Source: Nitrososphaerota archaeon (GTDB taxonomy: Archaea > Thermoproteota > Nitrososphaeria_A > Caldarchaeales > Caldarchaeaceae). Taken from it: DNA of 64,000 nt. Location of the stretch: positions 288,001 to 352,000 of the forward strand of contig JBEPYN010000001.1 in NCBI GenBank assembly GCA_041641305.1. Reading direction: 5' to 3'. Positions 7,557 to 19,905 of this stretch are shown here, piece after piece. The notes beneath the pieces were generated by a model, which did no database searches, had not been told where the DNA came from, and saw nothing but the letters and a program-made list of their open reading frames with translations. The position numbers were made by a program, and so were the translations under genes. Position 1 is the stretch's first letter, and every line of letters begins with the position of its first letter.

Positions 7557-8102
7557 GTGCCGCGGATGTTTGAGGGCCTGCTTCTAGGAGACAGCGTAGT
7601 TGTATGGAATGTTGACCAAGCGCGGGAGCTTTACCGCACAGGATTCTATGGAAAACCCCTAGGCGTCCCCAAGCCAAGAGACCTCAACTTCGATGCCCCC
7701 CTTGTCCTCGACCTTGTCGAGGCTCTTTACCTCGCTAAGCAGCGAAAGCTGCGTATTCTCCGCGGCGACACAGAGATTTCTCCCGAGGATTTTGAGGAAT
7801 ATGCCGCATCGGTGGAGCCGAACTTCAAAACAAAGTACCATGTCTACGCAGACCTACGTGAACGTGGTTTCATAGTCCTGCCGGGGATAAAGTTCGGCAG
7901 CGACTTCGCGGTTTACCGACATGGCCCCGGCATAGACCATGCGCCATTCATCATACAGATTAAGAAGGGTGATGATAGGCTTTCTGCCTTGGAGATAATT
8001 AGGGCGGGGCGCCTCGCCACCTCTGTCAAAAAACATTTCACGATATCTGTGCCCACTGATGATAAAGTTGTGTACCTGATGTTTGAGTGGTGGAGAGCTT
8101 AA
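7557..8102 (+). CDS. endA: tRNA-intron endonuclease, catalytic subunit
   Basis: LVEALYL, VYADLRERG, GIKFGSDFAVY, H and RLATSVKK (Tyr/His/Lys triad present). Confidence 0.93.
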   Translation: MPRMFEGLLLGDSVVVWNVDQARELYRTGFYGKPLGVPKPRDLNFDAPLVLDLVEALYLAKQRKLRILRGDTEISPEDFEEYAASVEPNFKTKYHVYADLRERGFIVLPGIKFGSDFAVYRHGPGIDHAPFIIQIKKGDDRLSALEIIRAGRLATSVKKHFTISVPTDDKVVYLMFEWWRA

Positions 8103-8755
8103 ACCATACGGATGTAGATGACGTGGAGTAGTTTTCCAAATTTCTTGATTTCGAGCAGCTTGTGCCCCGTGCGCTCGGCGTAGGCAATCATGTCAACCTC
8201 TGTAGCCGGTTCAGAGGTTATCACATGCAGGCTCTCCCCAACCTTGAGGTAACGCGAGATAAAGTCGCCGACCTGTGTCAGGATGTTTTCACATGTTTCG
8301 CCGAAAACTGTGAGACGGAAATCGGCAAGTGTTTCTAAACAGGCCACGCCTCTCTCCGCGTTTATCGCGGCAAATTTTTCGGCGGCTGTCGACGAGTCCA
8401 CAGCATTTGTCAGGGGTTTCTCCGCACGCACCTTTGCTAGCCATCCCTCATCGTAGGTGTTTTTCACCAAAAGCTCCGGTGTCAAAACCGGGTTAGTCTC
8501 AAGTATAATGCAGTCGACTGGTGCAAGCAAGGCGGCGTCGGCCCGTGGGTTGGACAACACCGCCAGCATGGTGTTTTTCTTGGCCAGCGTACCTGATTGC
8601 CTCACGGTGACCCGGTGAGGTTTTCCGACAAAAAATAGATAGGGTTTTACGACGCCTACTAGGTAGGTGTTGTCTGAGAGAGGCTGCATCCAGAGGTCGT
8701 GTTCCACAACGTATAGTCTGTCGCTTGGGTAAATGCAGCCGTCAGCCTGGGTCAA
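8099..8755 (-). CDS. Fusion of GcvH/LbpA-like domain (no lipoyl Lys) and TusA-like sulfur-carrier domain
   Basis: N-half follows the H-protein pattern (PSDRLY..EH.LW, VG, APV, PELL...Y.EGWLAKV); C-half follows TusA (G.TC, LKVGESLHVITSEP...D...YAERTGHKLL). Confidence 0.75.
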   Translation of the reverse strand: MTQADGCIYPSDRLYVVEHDLWMQPLSDNTYLVGVVKPYLFFVGKPHRVTVRQSGTLAKKNTMLAVLSNPRADAALLAPVDCIILETNPVLTPELLVKNTYDEGWLAKVRAEKPLTNAVDSSTAAEKFAAINAERGVACLETLADFRLTVFGETCENILTQVGDFISRYLKVGESLHVITSEPATEVDMIAYAERTGHKLLEIKKFGKLLHVIYIRMV

Positions 8756-9603
8756 CGCTGCCGCTCAATCGGGAAACGGACGAGGTTCCCCCACTCAGTC
8801 CAGCTGCCGTCGTAAACTCTTACCCTCGGGTATCCGAGGAGATGCTTGAGGACAAACCATGTGACGCTGGCTCGTTCACCGATGCGGCAGTATGTCACCA
8901 CGTCCTTTTCAGGAGTCACACCTTTCGACGCGTAGAGCTGCTTAAGCTCCTCGGCCGACTTGAATGTTCCGTCTTCTCTGATAGCTTGTCCCCATGGAAT
9001 GTTTATGGCGCCCGGTATGTGGCCTCCTCGTTGTGCATGCTCGTTGGGGTACTCTGGTGGGGCTGTTATCTCGCCTGTGAACTCGGCTGGTGAACGGACG
9101 TCGACAAGAACGAGGTCGGCTTTCCCAACTTTTTCTCTGAGAAGCTCGTCGAAGAAGACGCGGTTTTCATATTTGACCTTCTCCACTTTATAGACCGCTG
9201 GCTTAGGTGTTGGAACCTCCTTAGTCAATTCCCCGCCCGTGTCTATCCATTTTTTTCTCCCGCCGTTTAGTATCTGAACTTTCTTGTGACCATATATTTC
9301 GAAGACCCAGAAGGCGAATGTTGCGAACCAGTTGTTGTAGTCGCCGTAGAGGATGACGTGTGTGTCGTTTGAGACGCCGAGTCTGCTCAACAGTTTCTCA
9401 AACTCCTCCGGACCTATGATGTCCCTCTGATCGGGCTTGTTCATGTCCTTTCTCCAGTCTATCAACAGCGCGCCTGGGATGTGACCCTGCTCGTAGGCCA
9501 GCTTCGGGTCATAGTCCACCTCTATCACTGTTATGCCTGGTTTTCCGAGATTTGCTTTCAGCCACTCAACCTCTACCAAAACCGATGGGTTTGCGTATGT
9601 CAT
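8752..9603 (-). CDS. Tandem-domain rhodanese (thiosulfate sulfurtransferase, CysA/SseA family)
   Basis: GHIPGA twice, active-site YCRIGER, YDGSWTEWG; start MTYANP. Confidence 0.95.
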   Translation of the reverse strand: MTYANPSVLVEVEWLKANLGKPGITVIEVDYDPKLAYEQGHIPGALLIDWRKDMNKPDQRDIIGPEEFEKLLSRLGVSNDTHVILYGDYNNWFATFAFWVFEIYGHKKVQILNGGRKKWIDTGGELTKEVPTPKPAVYKVEKVKYENRVFFDELLREKVGKADLVLVDVRSPAEFTGEITAPPEYPNEHAQRGGHIPGAINIPWGQAIREDGTFKSAEELKQLYASKGVTPEKDVVTYCRIGERASVTWFVLKHLLGYPRVRVYDGSWTEWGNLVRFPIERQR

Positions 9604-9627
9604 GTGGTTTATATGCATGATGCAAGA

Positions 9628-9655
9628 TTTATAGGTTATTATTCTACAATAATAA
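9628..9655 (-). promoter_or_regulatory. TATA box (TATAAA) plus adjacent 8-4-8 inverted repeat upstream of the rhodanese
   Basis: tttata at 9628-9633, about 25-30 nt upstream of the ATG; TTATTATT-ctac-AATAATAA at 9636-9655. Confidence 0.55.
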
Positions 9656-9665
9656 TTGGGAAATA

Positions 9666-11363
9666 TCACCCGTACCTGAACTTAACCCCGTGCCCATGCC
9701 ACTCATGGCCAAACCTCACGACCTCAGACGGCCCTATGACCCCGCATGTTCCACACGCCACGCACGCCACATGGTCAAACTTCAACAACCCATTCCTGAT
9801 GTCGTTCCAGGTCATTTCAAGGGCCTTTTTCTCGGCCTCGTTTATGTTTAGTCCCTGTTTCATTAGGTTCTCAAGGTTTAGACGATAAAGGTCTCTGAAG
9901 CTGGAGAACACCCCTTTCTCGGTTACGAGGGTGTAGCAGCTCACCGGACAGAGCGGTATCCATGCCTTGTATGGGTCGCGGGATGCAGCATCCTCATCTA
10001 CCGCTATGTGACTCCTGACCTTATCCTCGTGATACTCGAGTTTACCAATATATTGCTGAATTTTCTGAACCATGTCCCGCTGCACATCCCTCATGTTGAT
10101 GACGCGGCCCACCGAAGATTTCCCGAAACCCAAACTGAACCCGATAGATGGGAGAACAGAATAGGCGAAACGACCCTCTGTTAGCCTACTGTTTGACCGC
10201 GATTTCTCCACTCTCCTGTATAACGGCTCTAGGAGAATGCGGTAAACAGAGAGGGAGGCGTCGCTGAAGTCGTTTCGTTTCTTGGCTTCGATGAAGGTTT
10301 TAGCGGCAGCTATTCCCGAGGCTACGGCTGGTCTCATCCCGTCGATCAAGGCACCCATTTTGTAGAAGACGCCGAGGGAGTCTCCGGCCATCAGGAAACC
10401 CGGTGCATAGGGTTTCTGCGGCAGGATTTTGTAGCCACGCGGTATGTTGTGGGCCGAGTACTCGACGAGGGTTGCACCCTCGAGCAAGGGGCCGAGAAAC
10501 GGATGCTCCTCCATCTCCTCTAAGAGGTCGAGCGGCTTACCAACTTCCGTGAAGTCTTTCGTGAACTTTTCTATGCCCGATGAGAGGTCTATGACTATGC
10601 CGACCGATACGGTGTCACGGTTTGGGTACACGAACCCGCCTCCCACAACGCCGTGCATAAAAGGCCCGATAAGGTAAACAGATTTGTAGCCATCTCCCGT
10701 GGAGAAAAATTCCTCTATCCGTTCTGGGTTGACTTTGAAGATGTGCTTAACGCCGTGGTAGACCTGGTCTGGTGTGAGCTTGGACCTTATGCCAGCCTTT
10801 TCGGGAAGTAGGCTGGTGACCCCTCCGCAGTCTATAACCAAGTCCGCGTAAACCTCTTCGTCAACAGTCTTCACACCCACAACTCTCCCATCTCTCCAAA
10901 CAAGCTCTTCAACAGTTTTACGGCTGGTAAGCATAGCTCCCTCCTCGGTCGCGACACCGGCAAGCCAACGGTCAAACCGAGCCCTCAAAACAGAATAATC
11001 ATGTCCGGTGGAGGCGTCGAGCATGGTGAAACCCAGCTTGGTAAAGAGAGATGATTTGTCGAGCTTGATGTATCGGTAACTCGCCTCACCGTCTTGCTTA
11101 CGCGGCGAGCTCAACATGTACAACTCATGGCCAACGATTTTCCGCTCTAATGGTGCGTGTTCCTCAAACTCCGGCACCAAGTCAACTAGCCCGAGCCCGT
11201 TCTCAAATGCTCCGAATAATACGCCGCCGGAAACATTTCTCTGCCCCGGGAGCTGCGCCTTCTCCAACACGAGAACATCAAAACCTTCCCGGGCGAGTTT
11301 AATCGCCGCCGCACTTCCCGCGGGCCCCGCCCCAACAACAACGACGTCAAACTTTTCAACCAT
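9666..11363 (-). CDS. fixC: FixC (ETF:quinone oxidoreductase-like flavoprotein) fused to FixX-like ferredoxin
   Basis: VVGAGPAG Rossmann motif, NVSGG, RARFDRWL, EYSAH; C-terminal CPVSCY and CVACGTC...GVKFRYG. Confidence 0.85.
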   Translation of the reverse strand: MVEKFDVVVVGAGPAGSAAAIKLAREGFDVLVLEKAQLPGQRNVSGGVLFGAFENGLGLVDLVPEFEEHAPLERKIVGHELYMLSSPRKQDGEASYRYIKLDKSSLFTKLGFTMLDASTGHDYSVLRARFDRWLAGVATEEGAMLTSRKTVEELVWRDGRVVGVKTVDEEVYADLVIDCGGVTSLLPEKAGIRSKLTPDQVYHGVKHIFKVNPERIEEFFSTGDGYKSVYLIGPFMHGVVGGGFVYPNRDTVSVGIVIDLSSGIEKFTKDFTEVGKPLDLLEEMEEHPFLGPLLEGATLVEYSAHNIPRGYKILPQKPYAPGFLMAGDSLGVFYKMGALIDGMRPAVASGIAAAKTFIEAKKRNDFSDASLSVYRILLEPLYRRVEKSRSNSRLTEGRFAYSVLPSIGFSLGFGKSSVGRVINMRDVQRDMVQKIQQYIGKLEYHEDKVRSHIAVDEDAASRDPYKAWIPLCPVSCYTLVTEKGVFSSFRDLYRLNLENLMKQGLNINEAEKKALEMTWNDIRNGLLKFDHVACVACGTCGVIGPSEVVRFGHEWHGHGVKFRYG

Positions 11364-12450
11364 TGTATCCGCCCTCTATCAACTCGATTAAACGCGGCAC
11401 GATTTGGTAAAGGTCTCCCTTGACACCGTAGTGCGCGATCTCGAATATGGGGGCTTTGGGGTCGGTGTTTACGGCGACTATTTTCTTGGATTTTATCATG
11501 CCGACCCTATGCTGCACCGAGCCGCTTATCCCGAGAGCAACGTAGACGTCAGGCGATACTGTTTTACCCGTCTGCCCCACTTGTCTCTCAGATGTTATCA
11601 ATCCCTCCAGCTCCTTCAGTTCAGCGTGTATCAACGCACGGGTCGCGCCCAGCTCGGCTTTGACGCCGAGGCGTGTTTTGATGACTTCCACAAGTTTCTT
11701 GGCCAGTTCATAGCCCTCCCTCGGGTTGCGTGGGTTGCCCTTGCCGTCCTTGAGAATGCCCAAACCTATGCTAACAACTACCTTGGCCTCCTCGAGCTCG
11801 ACAGGGCTCTTCGGCACCTCCCTTTCCTCCAAAACCTGAACAAGAAAATCGTCGGGGTTCGGCTCGGGCCTCAGCCTAACCTTTTCACCGGCCCTGCTCC
11901 TGTCCTCGGGAAGGGGGTCGAAGTTCCCGGGCCTAATGCTCGCTATCTGAGGCCTGTGACGAGGTGTGTAGATTTTCGCCACACGTGTCGCGAAGTCAGG
12001 CCTTATCTGGGCCAAAACGTTTTTGAAAGTTGTGTTGAGCGGCCCGAAGTAGTAGTCTTCGACGGCGAGGTTGATGTTGTCGGTGGCCAATCCTGTGTTG
12101 AGCCTGTAGGCGACACGTGGAGAAAGGTCTCGCCCAAGCTCGTCTGCGACAAAAAGCAGCGCATAGGGCTTGTATCTCTCCACCATCTCGCAGACTATGC
12201 GAGTATATGGTAGACACTGGTAGCTCCGTAGCCAAGGCTCATCTGCATAGTAGACCACGTCAGCGCCCCTTGCAATTGCTTCGTCCACTGCATTCTCCAC
12301 ATCATATCCTATGATAACGGCTCCAACCCTCTGCTCAATTTTGTCAGCTACTTTCCGAGTCGCGGCGATAATCTCAAGGCTCGGCCTCGTCAGCCTTCCT
12401 TTATCCAAGGCGCAGTAAGCCCACACATCCCTATACTGCTCGAGCGACAA
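11356..12450 (-). CDS. etfA: Electron transfer flavoprotein alpha subunit
   Basis: GRDLSPRVA, RQVGQTGKTVSP, GISGSVQH, AVNTDPKAPIF. Confidence 0.93.
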   Translation of the reverse strand: MSLEQYRDVWAYCALDKGRLTRPSLEIIAATRKVADKIEQRVGAVIIGYDVENAVDEAIARGADVVYYADEPWLRSYQCLPYTRIVCEMVERYKPYALLFVADELGRDLSPRVAYRLNTGLATDNINLAVEDYYFGPLNTTFKNVLAQIRPDFATRVAKIYTPRHRPQIASIRPGNFDPLPEDRSRAGEKVRLRPEPNPDDFLVQVLEEREVPKSPVELEEAKVVVSIGLGILKDGKGNPRNPREGYELAKKLVEVIKTRLGVKAELGATRALIHAELKELEGLITSERQVGQTGKTVSPDVYVALGISGSVQHRVGMIKSKKIVAVNTDPKAPIFEIAHYGVKGDLYQIVPRLIELIEGGYNG

Positions 12451-13663
12451 CCTTCACACCTCCGAAAACCTCCTCAACCAAGTCTTCTAGAGTAAATACG
12501 TCAACAGCTTTTTGCGCCGCCAGTGAGTCGATAAGCTCCTTGGGAAGGTTGTTTACAGGGTCTCCTTTCTTGAATGGCCCATATGTTTTCCCGTTCCATT
12601 CAAGCTTCTCAACATCTTTCTTGAAGACAAGGGTCTCGCCGACAAACTTCTGGGTTGGAGGCTTTCCTATCTCATAGCCTGGGCCAACTATCGTGGGAGA
12701 GCCCATCAGCCCCAGCTTGGTTGGGTCGGCGTTTATGTAATCGGCGTTCCAGACAAGTGGATTCTCAAGCTTATGCGGATAGCTGTGCGCCCGTGCTTTT
12801 TTCTGGCTGGTGGCCGGGGGCGTTCTCGGCTCATAGTGGTGGTCTATCGTAAGAAGACATGGAAGAACCGTCCTCATCTTCTGTATTATGTTTCCGATTT
12901 TCCTCTCAGCAATAACATGGTCAAGCTCCGGCGAAATCTCGAAATCACGTGTGAAGGCTATGCTGGGAATGGTTACGCCGAGCATCTGGCTCAACGCTTC
13001 AGCCGTCTGCGGCCCAACATTTCCCGTCTCGCCGTCGCTGGTCTTCATACCGGTCAAAATAATGAATTTTGACAAACGTTCCCGGTATTTCTCCAACTCC
13101 GCCGACACATCCTCTCTACTTATTTCACCTCTTGCATAACGGGAGAAAACAGAGTCCTTCACAGATGGTAATTTGCTGTAGATGTGGTGTGGGAGAAAGT
13201 TCTGTTCATACAGCTCTTCTGCAAGCTTGAGAGCCTCATCCACCGAGGACTTCTCAACAACATCCTTGAGCCTGTCAACAGCATCGAAATGGTTCTGGAG
13301 ATATCGCTTGATCCCGCAGGCCAATGTGTAGGAAGTGGCCCATGTATCCGCCCCAGCCATGCGTCTGTCACTTAGGATAATTCTTTCATCAAAGCCTTCG
13401 AAAGATATCCTTGGCACATACTTGCTTTCTTCACGTGGCTCGACGAGGTCTGACATTATGGGGACGAGCTTGGGCTCGGGCCCCATCGTCATCGCCACAA
13501 TTTTTCCGCCGACAGTTTTCTTCACATAGTAAGCTGCCTCAACCGCTTTCACATCATGTGGGTTGAGGACTAGCTCCATCTCCTCACGTCGCAGAACACC
13601 CGACACCGTCACAACCTGCGTGGTTTTAGCCGGCACGCCCTTGACGAGACAAATAATCAACAT
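12431..13663 (-). CDS. etfB: Electron transfer flavoprotein beta subunit with large insertions
   Basis: LNPHD..AVE, TMGP, SDRRMAGADTWATSYTL, G.KTSDGETGNVGP, GLMGSPT. Confidence 0.9.
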   Translation of the reverse strand: MLIICLVKGVPAKTTQVVTVSGVLRREEMELVLNPHDVKAVEAAYYVKKTVGGKIVAMTMGPEPKLVPIMSDLVEPREESKYVPRISFEGFDERIILSDRRMAGADTWATSYTLACGIKRYLQNHFDAVDRLKDVVEKSSVDEALKLAEELYEQNFLPHHIYSKLPSVKDSVFSRYARGEISREDVSAELEKYRERLSKFIILTGMKTSDGETGNVGPQTAEALSQMLGVTIPSIAFTRDFEISPELDHVIAERKIGNIIQKMRTVLPCLLTIDHHYEPRTPPATSQKKARAHSYPHKLENPLVWNADYINADPTKLGLMGSPTIVGPGYEIGKPPTQKFVGETLVFKKDVEKLEWNGKTYGPFKKGDPVNNLPKELIDSLAAQKAVDVFTLEDLVEEVFGGVKVVARAV

Positions 13664-13694
13664 GTCAGCCTTCCCCACTATTTTCAGGCGTTTA

Positions 13695-15038
13695 CTATTT
13701 AACTTGTTTTTCTTTCAACACAACTGCAGTGTAGCGGTCGAAGTGGATTTCGGATTCGCCGAACTGATTTCTCTTTATCAGAGGAAAAACCAGAGTTAGC
13801 GACTCTCCCTCGGTTAATTCTCTGACTTTCTCAGACACAGGGCCCCATGCGACTCCGCTGTATATTTTGTTCTGAACCTTGAGCCAGAAACGTATAAGCT
13901 GCCTCACGCCAAAACGTGTCTCAATCATGGAAAGCTGTGTCTTTCTCAGAAGCTCTGCCTGTAGACAGACGTCGACGAGTCTTCCGTCAAATGATTCCAA
14001 CTCGCCCCCAAACAAAGGCAACTCTCCAACCTCAATCGACGCATCTACATCCTCGAACCGCTCCCAGTAGATATGCGGCACGCCGTTTATATCGAGAACG
14101 AAAAAATTTCTGCACAAGATATCTTGAGACGCTGTCTCAAGCTGGGGGGCTCTGTAAAATTTTTTCCCATTCCATACAACTGGGACCTCGTCGAAACATC
14201 GTGCCACAGGTCGGGCCTCTGTTGTCCCTGCTTTTTCAAGAATGCGGTTAACAAGAGAGGCGTCTTCTCCGACATACTCTATACATGTGTCATATAATGT
14301 GAAAAACTCGTTTCCGCGACGCTGCAGGTTGGCGGCGACAAATTTTTTCGCTCGAGAGCCGGCGAAGTATGAGGCGTTCTCTCTATATGCGTGAAGTATG
14401 TAGATGTCCTGTCCATCGGTTACAATCACGTCATTCAAGATGATGCCGTCGCCTGTTTTCCGTGGGCCTGTGTCAAAGACAACAACACCCCAGAAATCAG
14501 AGCTCTCTTCCCCGGAGCCCTCTCCCAACGGCTTAACAAGATTTTCCAGAGGAGGCATATTTGGCGCATCTTTTTTGATAACTGTGTTGGGTGAGAGGCG
14601 GATTGTTATCTTGTTGTTTCTCCGAACCACCGTGCAGCCGTGAGCAGCTAATACATCACCTACACGTATCTCCCGCAGAACATCTGTATCATCTCCCAAA
14701 ACCTCCACAGACGCGGTGCCATCCGAGAGCTTAAGTACTGTGTACGCTCTCCCATCCTGTGATACAGCAGTCCTTTTTCCGACAACTCTGCCAGCGACGT
14801 TGATGTTCTGGAGACCAGGTGTAACATTCTTTAGCTGTAAATATTCTCCGAATTCCTTTCCCGATATAAGCTCCTGAGCGATCCTCATCTCCTCGAGAAT
14901 TATGAGCAGAGCTCCGCGTCTCGTGAGAAAGGGCGAGCTCCGAATCTTCTCCTCAACCAGCCTGTCAAGAGCCGCTTTATCAAGCGACCTGTCCTTCTCC
15001 AAGATTGCTTTCTCTAGGTCTTCTTCGCGCATCCCCAA
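13695..15038 (-). CDS. Multi-OB-fold protein, RPA/single-stranded DNA-binding-like
   Basis: Archaeal RPA-type N-terminal helical domain (LVEEKI...LT..GALL), OB fold INVAGRV...LSDGTASV, C-terminal OB fold ending EIHFDRYT. Confidence 0.65.
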   Translation of the reverse strand: MGMREEDLEKAILEKDRSLDKAALDRLVEEKIRSSPFLTRRGALLIILEEMRIAQELISGKEFGEYLQLKNVTPGLQNINVAGRVVGKRTAVSQDGRAYTVLKLSDGTASVEVLGDDTDVLREIRVGDVLAAHGCTVVRRNNKITIRLSPNTVIKKDAPNMPPLENLVKPLGEGSGEESSDFWGVVVFDTGPRKTGDGIILNDVIVTDGQDIYILHAYRENASYFAGSRAKKFVAANLQRRGNEFFTLYDTCIEYVGEDASLVNRILEKAGTTEARPVARCFDEVPVVWNGKKFYRAPQLETASQDILCRNFFVLDINGVPHIYWERFEDVDASIEVGELPLFGGELESFDGRLVDVCLQAELLRKTQLSMIETRFGVRQLIRFWLKVQNKIYSGVAWGPVSEKVRELTEGESLTLVFPLIKRNQFGESEIHFDRYTAVVLKEKQVK

Positions 15039-15161: not shown

Positions 15162-15977
15162 GTGTTGGCCTTCCAGCTGGGTGCTGCGTTTAAGCCCAGC
15201 CTATTAGGCGACAACAAGCTCGATACAGCCATATTTTATGCGAAGGTATTGGCTCGCCTTGGCTACAGGTATCTCGTACTTGACTCGGAGAGAGCCGTTG
15301 ATGACTTGTCTTTGAGAGATTTCGAGGAGCTTGTCTCGGTCTGTAAATTGCTGGGCTTCCCTGAACCTGTTATCACTATTCCTGTTAGACGTGGTGATTG
15401 CTGGGAAAGGCTCGGTGCTGTGGTTGATGTTGTGAGCAGGGACGGGTTTGGCGGTGTCTGCCTTGTCGCGGGAAACTCGGCTTATCTTACTCGGGAGGAG
15501 GCTTCGCAGAAGCCCGGCAAATTGTTGCTCGAAGCCGCCGAAGTTTTTCGTAGGAAATGCCGGTTTAACCTTTTGATGGTTGGCACCGAACGTGTCGAGA
15601 AAACGGCTGCCAAAATAGCGGCAAACCATCGCGCTATACCAGTCATGCTAATGACACCCAACATCGTTGAGGAGACTAGACTTTATTCACATAATGGTTT
15701 ACGGAGAGCTGTTTATGTCCCTTACTATTTTGGGGAGGAGCTTCCGAGAGATGTGGCGGAAAAGGTTCATGCCTATGTTTCGCGACGCGTCGGAGACAAA
15801 AACGTAGATGAAACTTGGCGGCAATTTGTCTACACTGGCCCCCTCAACGAATTCACACAGCTTCTACGTGATTTGTCGGCAAACAACATCGACGTCTTCA
15901 TAGGCTATCCGCTGGATAAACGCGTCAAACAGCTGACAGCCCTTTCTAAGGCCGTGACAGGCTTATCAACGGCTTAG
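15162..15977 (+). CDS. Hypothetical protein, probable TIM-barrel oxidoreductase-like
   Basis: Alternating beta/alpha pattern; fills the gap between RPA and gcvT; GAGGTG SD-like sequence at the start. Confidence 0.55.
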   Translation: MLAFQLGAAFKPSLLGDNKLDTAIFYAKVLARLGYRYLVLDSERAVDDLSLRDFEELVSVCKLLGFPEPVITIPVRRGDCWERLGAVVDVVSRDGFGGVCLVAGNSAYLTREEASQKPGKLLLEAAEVFRRKCRFNLLMVGTERVEKTAAKIAANHRAIPVMLMTPNIVEETRLYSHNGLRRAVYVPYYFGEELPRDVAEKVHAYVSRRVGDKNVDETWRQFVYTGPLNEFTQLLRDLSANNIDVFIGYPLDKRVKQLTALSKAVTGLSTA

Positions 15978-17028
15978 TCCTAACAACCGCTTTCCTGCGA
16001 CGGCCTCTGACATCGACAAAGACCTCGGCACCGTCAACGTGAATTGACGGCGGAAGATATGCTAGGGCTATTCCTTTGTTAATCGTCGGCGAGAGGCAAC
16101 CGCTTGTCACCTTTCCTGCCTCAACATCACCAACATAAACTTTGTATCCGGGCCGCGGCACACCCGGCTCCACCATCTCAACCAACATGAGTCGTTTGAC
16201 CGGGCCATTAGCCTGTTTTTTCTCCAGCGATTCTTTACCTATGAAAAACCGTTTATCCATTTTGACAGCCCAGAAGAGACCCGCCTCGATAGGGTCATTC
16301 TTCTCGTCAAAATCCTGTCCATATAGCGGGAAGCCGGCCTCTATTCGGCAGACGTCGCGGCAGGCCAGCCCACATGGCTTGACACCCTGATCGGTGAAAA
16401 ATTTCCAGACTTTCTCATAGAGTTCCTGTATCCCGCATAAAACCATCAACTCGTACCCGTCGCCACCGGTGTAGCCGCTTCGCGTAACCAATAGTCTGCA
16501 ATCGCCCATGTTTCTGAACCCGCCCTCAAACCATTTAAAACCAGAAACATCCCCAACCAAATTTGAAACATATGCTGAGGACTTCGGGCCCTGCACCGCG
16601 AAGAAGGCGCTGCTCTCCGTGATGTCTTCAACTAACACCTCGCCCTCTATGTTATGCTCCAACCACTCCAGGACACGATTTCTCGTCAAGGCGTTTGAGA
16701 CCATGAGATAACTGTTGTCCGCGACTTTGTAGACCGTGACATCGTCTATGATGCCTCCATCCATGTTAAGAATCAATCCATACTTCATCCGGCCTGGCTT
16801 CAGCCTCTCAACATCTATTGTCAGGATTTTTTGGAGAAGCTGAGTCGCGTCTGGGCCGGATATCTTTGTCCGGGTCATGTGGCTAATGTCGAAAATGCCA
16901 GCATCCCTTCTCACAGCCTCGTGCTCCTCGCGGAGAGAAGTGAATGTGATTATTGTCCGCCAGCCAGCGAACTCGCCCAGCTCCTTCGCATTCTTCTCAT
17001 GAAGATGAAGCAGAGGTATTTTGTTCAT
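15946..17028 (-). CDS. gcvT: Glycine cleavage system T protein (aminomethyltransferase)
   Basis: EHEAVR..AGIFDISHM, GGIIDD, AVQGP, TRSGYTGGDGYE, RIEAGFPLYG. Confidence 0.95.
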   Translation of the reverse strand: MNKIPLLHLHEKNAKELGEFAGWRTIITFTSLREEHEAVRRDAGIFDISHMTRTKISGPDATQLLQKILTIDVERLKPGRMKYGLILNMDGGIIDDVTVYKVADNSYLMVSNALTRNRVLEWLEHNIEGEVLVEDITESSAFFAVQGPKSSAYVSNLVGDVSGFKWFEGGFRNMGDCRLLVTRSGYTGGDGYELMVLCGIQELYEKVWKFFTDQGVKPCGLACRDVCRIEAGFPLYGQDFDEKNDPIEAGLFWAVKMDKRFFIGKESLEKKQANGPVKRLMLVEMVEPGVPRPGYKVYVGDVEAGKVTSGCLSPTINKGIALAYLPPSIHVDGAEVFVDVRGRRRKAVVRTKPLISLSRP

Positions 17029-18535
17029 TCTGTCTCCTCCGCAACATGCGCATACTGAGGGTTAAATGCATTGGGTGGGAGGCTTTGGCCTCGTTTATTC
17101 TCCCAACGGCTGTGTTGTGTGGAGCCGATTTAACCAGCTGAGGCGAGTCATAGCATTCCTGAATCACTTTGGATAGGGCTTCGTAGAAGTTGTCGAGCGT
17201 TTCCTTGCTCTCTGTCTCTGTCGGCTCTATCATGAAAGCCTCCTCAATAATCAGCGGAAAATATATCGTCGGCGCATGGACGCCATAGTCGAGGAGGCGC
17301 TTCGCGACCTCAAGCGCTCCGAGTCCAGTCTCTTTTCTGAGCTTGGCGAGGCTGACGACGAACTCGTGTTTTCTTGGACGTGTCGGGTCGTAGGGGAGTG
17401 TGACGCCTCGCAGCCTCCTCACCTTGCTTAGCAGATAGTTTGAAGACGAGACCGCGTAGAGTGCGGATCGTCTCAGACCTTCACCGCCAAGCGCAAGGAT
17501 GTAAGCATATGCTCGTAGAAGAACAGCGAAGTTTCCTGTAAAGAGCTTGACTGGGCCTATGCTAGATGGCCCACCATCGTCTAATAAGTATCGTCCGTCG
17601 CCTGTTTTGACCACTCTCGGAGGAGGCAGGTATTTTGCCAGTTTTGCGACGACTCCTACTGGCCCTGCGCCCGGGCCTCCTCCACCATGTGGTGTGGAGA
17701 AGGTTTTGTGAAGATTGAGGTGAACGATGTCGAAGCCCATGTCACCCGGCCTCGCGACACCGACTATTGCGTTGAGGTTTGCGCCGTCGTAGTATAGCAG
17801 GGAATCGTTTTGATGCATGATTCGGACGATTTCTTCGATGCCTTTCTCGAACAATCCGATTGTGTTGGGGTTTGTCAGCATTATGCCGGCGACGTCTCCG
17901 TCAACCATTTTCTCGAGCATCTCGAGGTCGACGCATCCGTCTTCACGTGTTCTCACCACCTTGACGTCGAAGCCCGCCATGGCGGCGCTTGCAGGGTTTG
18001 TCCCGTGGGCTGAGTCTGGGACGATGATTTTCGGCCTCGGCTTCCCTTCTTTCTCGCTGTGGTAGGCTCTGATGATGAGGCATCCAACCAGTTCTCCATG
18101 CGCACCGGCCGCGGGAACCATCGAGAAAGCATCCATGCCCGTCAACTCCTTCAGCGCCTGCTCGAGGTTGTATAGAATCTCGAGACATCCCTGTACGGTT
18201 TCCACTGGCTGGAGTGGATGAATGTCGGCGACTTGGTCGGCGATTTGGTTGTTTACTACGGGGTTGTATTTCATGGTGCAGCTGCCGAGTGGGTAGAAGC
18301 CTGTGGAGATACTGTAGTTCATTTGGCTTAGGCGTGTGAAGTGTCTCACAACAGTCAGTTCTGAGAGCTCTGGCAGGGTGAGGCTATCTCTGAGGAGTTT
18401 TCCCGGAATTTTGCTGAGGCTTCTTTCTCCCGCCTCCCTAATCTCTCGAGGATTTGATGGAACCTTGAAACCTATGACACCGGGACGTGACAACTCGTAG
18501 ACAAGTTTCTCATCCCAGTAAGCCTGACGGAACAT
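16997..18535 (-). CDS. gcvPB: Glycine dehydrogenase subunit 2 (P protein beta)
   Basis: YPLGSCTMKYNP, SAHGTNPASA, HLNLHKTFSTPHGGGGPG; start MFRQA. Confidence 0.96.
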   Translation of the reverse strand: MFRQAYWDEKLVYELSRPGVIGFKVPSNPREIREAGERSLSKIPGKLLRDSLTLPELSELTVVRHFTRLSQMNYSISTGFYPLGSCTMKYNPVVNNQIADQVADIHPLQPVETVQGCLEILYNLEQALKELTGMDAFSMVPAAGAHGELVGCLIIRAYHSEKEGKPRPKIIVPDSAHGTNPASAAMAGFDVKVVRTREDGCVDLEMLEKMVDGDVAGIMLTNPNTIGLFEKGIEEIVRIMHQNDSLLYYDGANLNAIVGVARPGDMGFDIVHLNLHKTFSTPHGGGGPGAGPVGVVAKLAKYLPPPRVVKTGDGRYLLDDGGPSSIGPVKLFTGNFAVLLRAYAYILALGGEGLRRSALYAVSSSNYLLSKVRRLRGVTLPYDPTRPRKHEFVVSLAKLRKETGLGALEVAKRLLDYGVHAPTIYFPLIIEEAFMIEPTETESKETLDNFYEALSKVIQECYDSPQLVKSAPHNTAVGRINEAKASHPMHLTLSMRMLRRRQNEQNTSASSS

Positions 18536-19905
18536 CAAACCACACCCTTCACAGTCTCCAAATAATCCCGGATGTCCTCGACGCTGTGAACCTCTGTCAC
18601 ACACGTCAACACACCGTCGCCCAGTTGCGGAAAATCATCCACAATCCTGATGCCCCCAACTATTCCGATGCTTAGAAGCCTCTTCAACAGCTCCTCAGAT
18701 GAGTGTCCCTCTTTTCTGTAGGTGAACTCCATGTAATGTGGGGCATTTAGCAGCGGCGCCTTTACTCCATCCACCTTCTGGAAACATTCGATGAAGTAGG
18801 CCGTCTTCTCGAAGATGTGTCGAGCGAGTGATTGAAGTCCATGTTTGCCCAGAAGCGAGAGATAGGCTGCGGCTGTTATGGCGCAGAGAGCCTGGTTGGT
18901 GCAGATGTTTGAGGTGGCTTTTTCGCGTTTGATGTCTTGTTCTCTGGCCCTTAGCACCATCGTGAAAGCTCGCCTCCCATCCCCAAGTGTCTCAGCCATA
19001 CCCACCATCCTGCCAGGCATGCTGTGGATAAGCTTCCGGTCGCCGCTGCACCCCAATACCCCAAGCAGTGGGCCGCCAAAATTCATCGGAAGACCGAGCG
19101 GCTGACCCTCGCCGACGACGATGTCGGCTCCCATCGCTCCCGGCGGCCGCAGCAAACCGAGAGAAATCGGCTCTGCACCTACTACGAACAAGGCGTTTCT
19201 GTCGTGGGCAATTTCGCCTACCGCTTCAACATTCTCCACTAAGGCCCCGAGGTAGCACGGGTTCTCGACATAAACAGCAGAAGTCTCATCGTCAACCAAC
19301 GTTTTCAACTCCTCCTCATCCACTTTTCCCGTCTCGTCGAATGATGCCTTAACGAGCTTGAGGCCCAACGGCTTAACATATGTCTCGGCCACACGTATTC
19401 TCCCGGGGCCACAGTGGCCTGCGTAGACGATCTTGTCTCGGCCGTTGTATCGATATGCCATTCTGAAGGCCTCTCCCAAGGCTGTGGCCCAGTCATACAT
19501 GGAGGAGTTTACGACGTCCACTTCATAGAGGTCTGCGACAAGGCTCTGGAACTCGAACAAGGCTGTTAAAACACCCTGCGAAACCTCGGGCTGATAAGGG
19601 GTATAGCTTGTTACAAACTCGCTTCTTGAAGCAATCTCCTTCACAGCGGCTGGAACATGGTGTGGCCATACACCTCCTCCCAAGAAGAGACGGAGACCCT
19701 GCCTATTTTTGGACAAAATGTTTTTGACATGTTTGATCAGCTCAGGTTCGGAGAACGGACCTTCAAGACTCGGCGGAGAACTGAGAATATAACGGGATGG
19801 GATGTCTGCGTAGAGCTCCATTATGTCTTTGACACCTATCGCGTGAAGCATCTGACGCAGGTCTTCTTCCGTATGATGCCCGATGTAGGGAAAAACCTTA
19901 TCCAT
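18535..19905 (-). CDS. gcvPA: Glycine dehydrogenase subunit 1 (P protein alpha)
   Basis: TSYTPYQPEVSQG, NSSMYD, REQDIKREKATSNICTNQAL. Confidence 0.96.
   Translation of the reverse strand: MDKVFPYIGHHTEEDLRQMLHAIGVKDIMELYADIPSRYILSSPPSLEGPFSEPELIKHVKNILSKNRQGLRLFLGGGVWPHHVPAAVKEIASRSEFVTSYTPYQPEVSQGVLTALFEFQSLVADLYEVDVVNSSMYDWATALGEAFRMAYRYNGRDKIVYAGHCGPGRIRVAETYVKPLGLKLVKASFDETGKVDEEELKTLVDDETSAVYVENPCYLGALVENVEAVGEIAHDRNALFVVGAEPISLGLLRPPGAMGADIVVGEGQPLGLPMNFGGPLLGVLGCSGDRKLIHSMPGRMVGMAETLGDGRRAFTMVLRAREQDIKREKATSNICTNQALCAITAAAYLSLLGKHGLQSLARHIFEKTAYFIECFQKVDGVKAPLLNAPHYMEFTYRKEGHSSEELLKRLLSIGIVGGIRIVDDFPQLGDGVLTCVTEVHSVEDIRDYLETVKGVV

What the first reader, a model, noticed from the sequence alone, without database searches (positions are those of the whole stretch)
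8099..8755. LbpA-type H-protein domain without lipoyl lysine fused to TusA: candidate lipoate-free sulfur carrier
Seen: residues 1-140 follow the GcvH fold, but the lipoylation site (VESxK) reads LSNPR. The domain keeps a Cys at each end (MTQADGCIYP and AERGVAC). Residues about 145-218 are TusA-like with Cys retained (GETCENI instead of CPxP). Established: N- and C-terminal Cys are characteristic of LbpA proteins of sHdr sulfur-oxidation systems rather than true GcvH, and TusA is a persulfide carrier in the same pathways. Inference: a Rosetta-stone fusion in which sulfur passes between TusA and LbpA cysteines without lipoate. I do not know this architecture as characterised.
Basis: partly seen in the sequence, partly recalled or inferred. 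Interest (0 to 1): 0.85.

Follow-up and report, generated by a model that had tools for sequence, protein, structure and literature searches.

The report
Lipoate-free LbpA–TusA sulfur carrier fusion
This archaeal gene joins a lipoate-carrier-like domain that has lost its lipoate-bearing lysine to a TusA-type sulfur-carrier domain, keeps three invariant cysteines, and is almost always encoded next to a rhodanese, so it is probably an undescribed protein that takes sulfur from that enzyme.

Summary
Window 8099-8755 (minus strand) encodes a 218-aa protein with an H-protein domain (residues 1-142) and a TusA-like domain (143-218). The lipoyl-lysine position is Arg71. Cys7 and Cys139 align with the two cysteines that mark LbpA proteins, and Cys155 aligns with the catalytic Cys19 of TusA.

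It belongs to a wide archaeal family. In 80 species genomes the three cysteines are invariant, while the lipoyl position is R 53, K 22, N 3, T 2.

The H domain groups with genuine LbpA rather than GcvH. No sHdr was found in this genome, and a canonical GcvH lies on another contig.

The only conserved neighbour is a two-domain thiosulfate-sulfurtransferase-type rhodanese (61 of 80 loci). Here its stop overlaps the fusion's start. A complex prediction supports binding (0.64 against 0.00 for controls), through the former lipoyl hairpin.

The ETF/FixCX genes upstream are lineage-specific synteny.

Sulfur transfer itself is inferred, not shown. I found no paper describing this architecture. The scan had already noted the same gene pair in other genomes (e1-1410138, e1-4790079).

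Verdict: a new variant of known sulfur-carrier modules, of moderate to high interest.

The parts
8099..8755 (-). Gene for the 218-aa LbpA-like/TusA-like fusion protein (TTG start at 8755-8753, TAA stop at 8101-8099).
   Evidence: The N-terminus MTQADGC matches homolog N-termini.
8330..8755 (-). H-protein (LbpA-type) domain, residues 1-142.
   Evidence: Pfam GCV_H E 7e-10. Profile against PDB GcvH E 2e-26. Foldseek TM 0.86 to 1onl. Grouped with LbpA in the tree.
8735..8737 (-). Cys7 codon, the N-terminal LbpA-type cysteine.
   Evidence: Aligned with the N-terminal Cys of genuine LbpA P0061. Cys in 74 of 74 alignable homologs.
8543..8545 (-). Arg71 codon, at the position of the lipoyl-lysine.
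   Evidence: Alignment with GcvH and LbpA. Across the family: R 53, K 22, N 3, T 2. At least 10 state changes on the tree.
8339..8341 (-). Cys139 codon, the C-terminal LbpA-type cysteine, in the linker after the last helix of the H domain.
   Evidence: Aligned with the C-terminal Cys of LbpA-like proteins. Cys in 80 of 80 homologs.
8102..8329 (-). TusA-like domain, residues 143-218.
   Evidence: Domain profile against E. coli TusA 1dcj/3lvj E 2e-12. hhalign to the genome's own TusA, probability 97.8. Foldseek TM 0.89-0.90.
8291..8293 (-). Cys155 codon, equivalent to TusA Cys19 (GETCENI in place of CPxP).
   Evidence: Aligned with RCPEP of E. coli TusA. Cys in 80 of 80 homologs.
8752..9603 (-). 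Two-domain rhodanese (283 aa from ATG 9603; the open frame runs up to GTG 9669). The active-site loop is CRIGERAS, with Cys239 at 8887-8889. Its TGA stop overlaps the fusion's TTG start (TTGA).
   Evidence: Pfam Rhodanese, two stretches, E 5e-40. Closest solved relative is T. thermophilus rhodanese 1UAR, E 4e-102. Conserved neighbour in 61 of 80 loci. The overlap can be read.
9627..9633 (-). TATAAAT, a possible archaeal TATA box about 27 nt upstream of the rhodanese ATG, in the 62-bp gap after fixCX.
   Evidence: Read directly from the sequence. An inference only; not tested.

Best explanation
The gene encodes a cytoplasmic, lipoate-independent sulfur carrier. It is made of an LbpA-derived H-protein domain and a TusA-type domain, and it works as the dedicated partner of the co-encoded two-domain rhodanese.

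Proposed sequence of events: (1) the rhodanese (CRIGERAS loop) takes sulfane sulfur from thiosulfate or a persulfide onto its active-site cysteine. (2) The fusion docks on the rhodanese through the former lipoyl hairpin of its H domain, where a conserved positive residue (Arg71 here, Lys in some relatives) replaces the lipoyl-lysine. (3) The sulfur is taken up as a persulfide by Cys155 of the TusA-like domain and/or by the Cys7/Cys139 pair. (4) It is then passed on to other carriers, such as the DsrE3-TusA module encoded elsewhere in the genome.

Shown: domain identities, cysteine conservation, dispensability of the lysine, the conserved gene pair, and translational coupling.

Predicted: binding to the rhodanese.

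Inferred: every sulfur-transfer step, the order of the cysteines, and the final destination of the sulfur.
For: - Domains: GCV_H and TusA from Pfam, PDB profiles and fold comparison. The AlphaFold2 model has pLDDT 96 and pTM 0.88.
- LbpA kinship: the H domain forms a group with LbpA-like proteins (SH-aLRT 93), apart from GcvH and from the genome's own GcvH. That group includes P0061, which sits directly after dsrE-hdrC1B1A-hyp-hdrC2B2.
- Cysteines: Cys7 and Cys139 align with the LbpA cysteine pair. That pair is modelled within disulfide distance in LbpA (preprint 10.64898/2026.10.01.755906).
- Conservation: the three cysteines are invariant in 80 species genomes.
- Lipoyl position: it varies (R/K/N/T), with at least 10 switches on the tree.
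- Neighbourhood: unbiased neighbour clustering finds only one conserved neighbour, a ~289-aa rhodanese with a CRIGERS/A loop. It occurs in 61 of 80 loci, at a median gap of 25 bp. Independent metagenome contexts also show it.
- Other sulfur carriers: some relatives sit beside DsrE3-TusA, a cysteine desulfurase or a Pyr_redox_2 flavoprotein.
- Coupling: in the window the rhodanese stop and the fusion start overlap (TTGA).
- Complex prediction: it supports binding, with score 0.64 against a best control of 0.00. That mark was reached by 58 of 80 solved complexes and 2 of 110 mismatched pairs. The runs agree in at least 96% of contacts, and the partner's pLDDT is at least 89. The interface is the hairpin 66-77, which includes Arg71.
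- Published link: TusA co-purifies with LbpA in Aquifex (PMC11094781).
Against: - No biochemical evidence exists, and no expression data could be obtained.
- The TusA-like domain lacks the CPxP motif. As a single sequence it scores just under Pfam's cut-off (27.6 against 28.6 bits).
- The predicted interface names neither the rhodanese's Cys239 nor any of the fusion's three cysteines, so a sulfur-transfer geometry is not shown.
- In most lineages the two genes are convergent rather than in one operon.
- 13 loci with enough flanking DNA lack the rhodanese nearby.
- About 28% of members keep Lys at the lipoyl position, so some could still be lipoylated.
- Cys-Cys distances in the model could not be read with these tools.
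Confidence: 0.6

Rival explanations
1. Dithiol/disulfide partner rather than carrier. The Cys7/Cys139 pair plays the part of dihydrolipoamide. It reduces the persulfide held by the rhodanese or by Cys155, releasing H2S (or sulfite plus H2S from thiosulfate), and ends as an intramolecular disulfide that is then re-reduced. The pair would then act as a thiosulfate or persulfide reductase system.
For: The LbpA cysteines are modelled within disulfide distance and align with Cys7 and Cys139. The lipoyl-lysine is dispensable while the cysteine pair is invariant. From my own knowledge, not checked here: bovine rhodanese uses dihydrolipoate as a sulfur acceptor.
Against: No reductase for such a disulfide is conserved next to the pair. 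This reading does not explain the invariant TusA-type cysteine better than the carrier model does. It has not been tested.
Confidence: 0.17
2. Electron-coupled sulfur oxidation module. Rhodanese and fusion deliver sulfur whose electrons go through the upstream EtfB-EtfA-FixCX to quinone or ferredoxin, by analogy with the EtfAB-EMO genes of type II sHdr clusters.
For: Five co-oriented genes lie at window 8099-13678. The synteny is kept in Caldarchaeales relatives at about 47% identity. ETF genes accompany type II shdr clusters (PMC11094781).
Against: A more distant relative keeps rhodanese-fusion-endA-PhoU_div but has no ETF genes. None of the 80 loci from other archaeal lineages has ETF as a conserved neighbour. 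A 62-bp gap with a TATA-like box precedes the rhodanese gene. No sulfur-oxidising catalytic subunit is present, and sHdrA/sHdrB1 were not found.
Confidence: 0.06
3. Non-catalytic adaptor or regulator. The H-like domain merely binds the rhodanese (or another lipoyl-domain-binding enzyme) to regulate or localise it, and the cysteines serve as a redox switch rather than as sulfur carriers.
For: The predicted contact uses the hairpin and no cysteine. K/R interchange at the hairpin tip fits a docking salt bridge.
Against: Three invariant cysteines at exactly the positions that are functional or diagnostic in TusA and LbpA are hard to explain by docking alone. Some relatives also sit next to DsrE3, TusA or a cysteine desulfurase.
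Confidence: 0.1
4. A divergent H-protein of the glycine cleavage system, given that gcvT, gcvPB and gcvPA lie 7-11 kb away in the window without a gcvH.
For: gcvT-gcvPB-gcvPA lie at 15946-19905 with no gcvH beside them. The synteny with gcvT is kept in close relatives.
Against: There is no lysine at the lipoyl position. A canonical GcvH with the ESVK motif lies on another contig. The H domain branches apart from GcvH. Relatives outside Caldarchaeales have no gcv genes nearby.
Confidence: 0.02

Closest known systems
[quoted passage not shown] 2018, PMC6067878)
   Same: Both have the H-protein fold and the N- and C-terminal cysteines in the same alignment columns. The N-terminal motif GC.FP.D.LY is shared. 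The surface is more basic than in GcvH (median pI 6.3 for the fusion H domains, 5.2 for LbpA-like proteins, 4.4 for GcvH). The two group together in the tree.
   Different: The strictly conserved lipoyl-lysine is Arg here and is variable across the family. The protein is fused to a TusA-like domain. No sHdr genes were found in this genome or in four other genomes that carry the fusion. The constant neighbour is a two-domain rhodanese, not shdr genes.
TusA (E. coli YhhP/TusA; TusA of sulfur oxidisers)
   Same: Both have the two-layer alpha/beta fold (TM 0.89-0.90). The cysteine at the start of helix 1 is in register with Cys19. A DDP-type motif follows strand 2 (SEPATEVD here, DDPTA..E in the family).
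   Different: CPxP is replaced by C-E-N-I (C-[SA]-A-[VI]-L in the family). It is not a free-standing 80-aa protein. The genome also has three ordinary TusA genes.
DsrE3A-TusA and Rhd-TusA-DsrE2 sulfur relays (Metallosphaera cuprina, PMC4175335; Hyphomicrobium and Aquifex, PMC11094781)
   Same: These are networks of rhodanese, TusA and a further cysteine carrier that exchange persulfide or thiosulfonate groups. Some fusion genes lie beside DsrE3-TusA, and this genome has a DsrE3-TusA-flavoprotein-ArsR cluster.
   Different: Those relays use separate proteins and feed sHdr or Dsr. Here two carrier modules are fused, and no sulfur-oxidising end enzyme is linked to them.
GcvH, the H-protein of the glycine cleavage system
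   Same: The fold is the same (TM 0.86 to T. thermophilus GcvH).
   Different: There is no lipoyl-lysine, extra cysteines are present, and the clade is different. A genuine GcvH is encoded elsewhere in the genome.

Membership tests
LbpA (sHdr-associated lipoate-binding protein) | H-protein (GcvH-like) fold | tested here: met
   Pfam GCV_H E 7e-10. Foldseek TM 0.86 to 1onl.
LbpA (sHdr-associated lipoate-binding protein) | Strictly conserved lipoyl-lysine (ES.K hairpin) | tested here: not met
   Arg71 sits in that column. The family shows R 53, K 22, N 3, T 2.
LbpA (sHdr-associated lipoate-binding protein) | Two conserved cysteines, near the N- and C-terminus, that GcvH lacks | tested here: met
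   Cys7 and Cys139 align with those of P0061 and other LbpA-like proteins. They are invariant in homologs. The definition comes from PMC6067878.
LbpA (sHdr-associated lipoate-binding protein) | Encoded in or near shdr genes, in a genome that has sHdr | tested here: not met
   CCG-domain proteins in the genome are an EMO-like protein next to etfBA and a LutB-like protein. sHdrB1 and sHdrA queries find nothing in G000 (99.3% complete) or in four other fusion-bearing genomes. shdr genes are not a conserved neighbour.
LbpA (sHdr-associated lipoate-binding protein) | Dedicated sLpl(AB) ligase and LipS1/S2 lipoate assembly | tested here: inconclusive
   One LplA-type catalytic domain was found in the genome. 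Its type was not determined, and LipS1/S2 were not searched.
LbpA (sHdr-associated lipoate-binding protein) | Phylogenetic placement with LbpA rather than GcvH | tested here: met
   Fusion H domains plus LbpA-like proteins form one group with SH-aLRT 93. GcvH, including the genome's own, lies on the other side. The tree is a quick search on 147 columns, so support is moderate.
TusA | TusA fold over the whole domain | tested here: met
   Foldseek TM 0.89-0.90, rmsd 1.6-1.7 to 3lvj_C/3lvk_B. Profile E 2e-12 to 1dcj/3lvj over 73 residues.
TusA | Catalytic cysteine at the N-terminus of helix 1 (Cys19 in E. coli) | tested here: met
   Cys155 is aligned with RC19PEP and with the Cys of the genome's own TusA. 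It is invariant.
TusA | CPxP motif | tested here: not met
   The motif reads CENI here and C[SA]A[VI]L in the family.
TusA | Score over Pfam's gathering threshold | tested here: not met
   27.6 bits against a cut-off of 28.6 for the single sequence. The family profile matches clearly.
TusA | Accepts and donates persulfide or thiosulfonate sulfur | not testable with these tools
   This needs mass spectrometry of the purified protein.
GcvH (glycine cleavage H-protein) | Lipoyl-lysine in an ESVK-type hairpin | tested here: not met
   The hairpin reads LSNPR. The genome's real GcvH has ESVK.
Two-domain thiosulfate sulfurtransferase (the neighbour gene) | Two rhodanese domains and a CRxGxR-type active-site loop in the second | tested here: met
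   Two Rhodanese stretches. The loop is CRIGERAS. E 4e-102 to T. thermophilus rhodanese 1UAR and about 1e-89 to mycobacterial thiosulfate sulfurtransferases.

The most novel reading that the evidence does not exclude
The LbpA-type cysteine pair is itself a sulfur-handling or redox site that works without lipoate. This archaeal fusion would be its minimal form: rhodanese to TusA-type Cys to the Cys7/Cys139 pair, on one polypeptide. If so, it would explain the still unassigned conserved cysteines of LbpA in the sHdr pathway. It would also show, as a natural Rosetta stone, that TusA hands sulfur directly to LbpA.
Probability: 0.35. Interest if true: 0.75.

Novelty: new variant of a known kind. 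Interest (0 to 1): 0.62.

Why it matters
LbpA proteins are essential in a widespread sulfur-oxidation pathway. The role of their two conserved cysteines is still open: the October 2026 preprint shows only that they are not needed for lipoylation.

In this family, evolution has dropped the requirement for the lysine while keeping both cysteines invariant, and has tied them covalently to a TusA-type cysteine. That makes the function of the cysteines testable in a simple two-protein system (rhodanese plus fusion) without any lipoylation machinery.

The family is common in uncultured soil, peat and hot-spring archaea (Nitrososphaeria other than ammonia oxidisers, Bathyarchaeia, Thermoplasmata, Marsarchaeota, Caldarchaeales), whose sulfur trafficking is barely known. 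Databases name these proteins 'glycine cleavage system H protein' or 'TusA family protein'. The first of those names is wrong as to function.

Tried and rejected
- Glycine-cleavage role: rejected. There is no lysine, a real GcvH exists elsewhere, and the clade is different.
- Functional link to the upstream EtfB-EtfA-FixCX: judged lineage-specific synteny.
- sHdr partner: searched through CCG domains and with sHdrB1 and sHdrA queries. Not found.
- The search for related loci with the broad alignment A2 failed for lack of a conserved stretch. A narrower alignment, A3, worked.
- My first greedy gene caller lost the fusion gene in 29 of 80 loci. I replaced it with clustering of all ORFs.
- The phylum-wide tally (215 of 300) mixes in ordinary GcvH and LbpA hits, so I did not use it. 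Only the 21 full-length matches count, and all lie in the window's own order, in families f1 and f3.
- I checked whether the predicted interface is enriched in invariant rhodanese residues. It is not: 8 of 21 interface residues are at least 90% conserved, against about 42% overall. I make no such claim.
- Cys-Cys distances could not be read, because the model's coordinates are not exposed.
Full report
**The gene**

Window 8099-8755 holds a 218-aa open frame on the minus strand with a TTG start. The start is credible because homologs begin four to six residues before the same Gly-Cys. The organism is a Candidatus Caldarchaeum (Aigarchaeota), going by the names of near-identical proteins. The assembly is 99.3% complete.

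**Two domains**

- Pfam gives GCV_H for residues 14-114 (E 7e-10). It gives TusA for 170-216 (E 2.7e-6, one bit under the gathering score).
- A profile of 32 family members hits solved GcvH structures at E 2e-26 (positions 9-133). It hits E. coli TusA at E 2e-10 (positions 146-218).
- A profile of the C-terminal domain alone gives E 2e-12 over 73 residues. The invariant cysteine lies opposite TusA Cys19.
- hhalign to the genome's own TusA gives probability 97.8.
- The AlphaFold2 model is very confident (pLDDT 96.1, pTM 0.88).
- Foldseek matches the first domain to T. thermophilus GcvH (TM 0.86) and the second to E. coli TusA (TM 0.89-0.90). No solved chain covers both domains.

**LbpA-type, not GcvH**

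Cao et al. 2018 (PMC6067878) state that LbpA proteins have a strictly conserved lipoyl-lysine plus two conserved cysteines that GcvH lacks, one near each terminus.

Among the stand-alone relatives found by an exhaustive search are 145-150-aa proteins with GC..P.D..Y at the N-terminus, an ES[GA]KW hairpin and a C-terminal cysteine. One of them, P0061, is encoded directly after dsrE-hdrC1-hdrB1-hdrA-hyp-hdrC2-hdrB2, so it is a genuine LbpA.

- In a joint alignment, Cys7 and Cys139 of the window protein fall in the columns of the two LbpA cysteines, and Arg71 falls in the lysine column.
- In a maximum-likelihood tree of 106 H domains, the fusion domains and the LbpA-like proteins form one group (SH-aLRT 93). 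Ordinary GcvH, including this genome's own GcvH, lies apart from it. The tree rests on 147 columns and a quick search, so this is moderate support.
- Median pI is 6.3 for the fusion H domains, 5.2 for LbpA-like proteins and 4.4 for GcvH. This matches the direction of the charge difference reported for LbpA against GcvH in preprint 10.64898/2026.10.01.755906.

**A family, with invariant cysteines and a dispensable lysine**

- The exhaustive search found about 30 representative clusters of full-length fusions at 21-31% identity.
- A scan of one genome per species found 201 loci. The best 80 are all archaeal MAGs except one bin labelled Dormiibacterota. They come from Nitrososphaeria/Thaumarchaeota, Bathyarchaeia, Thermoplasmata, Marsarchaeota and other Thermoproteota.
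- In those 80, Cys7 is present in 74 of 74 alignable sequences, Cys139 in 80 of 80 and Cys155 in 80 of 80. The lipoyl position is R 53, K 22, N 3, T 2.
- On the tree of 38 representatives that position changes state at least 10 times. This pattern fits selection for a positive charge, not for a lipoate attachment site.
- The ESM Atlas holds at least eight sizeable clusters with the same architecture, archaeal and named only by automatic annotation.
- No paper in the library mentions the fusion.

**Neighbours**

I clustered all ORFs within 5 kb of the fusion gene in the 80 loci, without prior annotation. Only one real conserved neighbour emerged: a ~289-aa two-domain rhodanese, present in 61 loci at a median distance of 25 bp, mostly convergent. 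Other frequent clusters are overlapping antisense ORFs or lineage-specific housekeeping genes (SUI1, EF-2, ABC transporter, AHSA1).

- Of the 19 loci without the rhodanese, six end within 600 bp of the gene.
- The rhodanese loop is CRIGERS in 55 and CRIGERA in 3.
- The rhodaneses are 55-62% identical across phyla, far more conserved than their partner.
- Independent metagenome contexts show the same pairing.
- Two of those contexts add DsrE3-type and TusA genes, with a cysteine desulfurase or a Pyr_redox_2 flavoprotein.
- The window's rhodanese is closest to T. thermophilus rhodanese 1UAR (E 4e-102) and to mycobacterial thiosulfate sulfurtransferases.
- In the window its TGA overlaps the fusion's TTG (TTGA), which suggests translational coupling.

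**ETF and glycine-cleavage genes nearby**

Upstream lie an EtfB-like gene, EtfA and a FixC-FixX fusion. gcvT, gcvPB and gcvPA lie further on. This synteny is kept in Caldarchaeales relatives at about 47% identity.

A 38%-identical relative keeps rhodanese-fusion-endA-PhoU_div but has an ABC transporter in place of the ETF genes. No other lineage shows ETF or gcv genes as conserved neighbours.

A 62-bp gap with TATAAAT about 27 nt before the rhodanese ATG suggests that the pair has its own promoter. That is inference from sequence only. I therefore treat the ETF and gcv genes as neighbours, not as parts of the unit.

**No sHdr**

- The genome's CCG-domain proteins are an EMO-like protein next to a second etfBA pair and a LutB-like protein.
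- sHdrB1 and sHdrA queries taken from the genuine cluster L022 found nothing in this genome. They also found nothing in four other fusion-bearing genomes, two Nitrososphaerota and two Thermoplasmata.
- The genome does have the following:
  - a canonical GcvH (ESVK) on another contig
  - three ordinary TusA genes
  - two DsrE-TusA pairs, one followed by a 397-aa flavoprotein and an ArsR-type regulator
  - one LplA-type ligase
  - a SufS/IscS-type desulfurase
  - sulfite-oxidase-family proteins
- The DsrE3-TusA-flavoprotein-ArsR cluster is syntenic with locus L009, where a fusion gene lies directly beside DsrE3.

**Binding to the rhodanese**

The complex prediction supports binding; it does not show it.

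- The score is 0.64, and the best of three controls is 0.00.
- That mark was reached by 58 of 80 solved complexes and 2 of 110 mismatched pairs. These counts hold only roughly, because my own alignments were used.
- The runs agree in at least 96% of contacts, and the partner's pLDDT is at least 89.
- The profile and fold searches against solved structures returned no chain that pairs a rhodanese with an H-protein domain. I know of no such solved complex, so recall from memory seems unlikely.
- On the fusion side the interface is residues 42-63, the former lipoyl hairpin 66-77 (including Arg71), and residues 135 and 169.
- On the rhodanese side it is residues 32-40, 88, 116-127 and 182-184.
- Neither Cys239 nor any of the fusion's cysteines is named, so the geometry of a sulfur transfer stays open.

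**Mechanism and verdict**

Shown:
- a two-domain protein of LbpA and TusA descent
- three invariant cysteines at the positions that define those families
- a lysine that is no longer required
- a conserved, here translationally coupled, rhodanese partner
- the absence of sHdr

Predicted: docking through the hairpin.

Inferred: the rhodanese persulfide is handed to Cys155 and/or the Cys7/Cys139 pair, and passed on to DsrE3/TusA-type carriers.

The LbpA cysteine pair is modelled within disulfide distance in the 2026 preprint. By alignment the same should hold here, which leaves open a dithiol/disulfide role as the main rival.

The protein fails two defining features of LbpA (lysine, sHdr context) and one of TusA (CPxP). 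It is therefore a new variant built from known modules, not a member of either family in the strict sense.

The scan had already flagged the same pair in other genomes (e1-1410138, e1-4790079). My analysis reached the same reading independently, before I opened those notes.

Noticed in passing
window 15946-19905 (minus strand): gcvT, gcvPB and gcvPA form a cluster with no gcvH. The only canonical GcvH (145 aa, ESVK) lies on another contig (G000 C2:179185-179544, L001 1456-1893).
   Followed up: partly
window 9666-13678 (minus strand): An unusual ETF set. It comprises a 415-aa EtfB-like protein with a long insertion and C-terminal extension (ETF domain split in two stretches), a 364-aa EtfA, and a 565-aa FixC fused to a FixX-like ferredoxin tail. 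No acyl-CoA dehydrogenase is beside them. The set is conserved in Caldarchaeales (L104, L105). A second, ordinary etfBA pair with an EMO-like Fe-S/CCG protein lies on contig C2 (L116 3482-7263).
   Followed up: partly
window 13695-15038 (minus strand) and 15162-15977 (plus strand): A 447-aa protein whose only recognisable part is an OB fold (tRNA_anti-codon, E 1e-6), and a DUF7388 protein. Both are conserved between gcvT and the ETF genes in relatives (L104, L105). Function unknown.
   Followed up: no
window 7557-8102 (plus strand): The tRNA-splicing endonuclease gene (EndA) converges on the fusion gene, and the two stop codons overlap by 4 nt. This endA-PhoU_div arrangement next to the fusion is kept even in the 38%-identical relative (L106).
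   Followed up: partly
G000 C2, L114 6989-9258: A DsrE3-type protein (166 aa), TusA (81 aa), a Pyr_redox_2 flavoprotein (397 aa, possibly SQR-like) and an ArsR-type regulator lie next to a eukaryote-type topoisomerase IB. The cluster is syntenic with L009, where a fusion-family gene sits directly beside DsrE3.
   Followed up: partly
P0007 (179 aa, partial, NCBI MAG): Its first ~60 residues look like an ordinary GcvH hairpin region with ESVE, and the rest is 86-100% like the Caldarchaeum fusion. This may be a chimeric assembly or a recombinant. It was left out of the tree.
   Followed up: no
L045-L077 subset (13 loci, Thermoplasmata and 'Methanobacteriota EA' bins): These fusion genes have enough flanking DNA but no rhodanese within 5 kb. 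Some have a zinc-type alcohol dehydrogenase or a cupredoxin protein downstream instead. I did not check whether a rhodanese lies elsewhere in those genomes.
   Followed up: no
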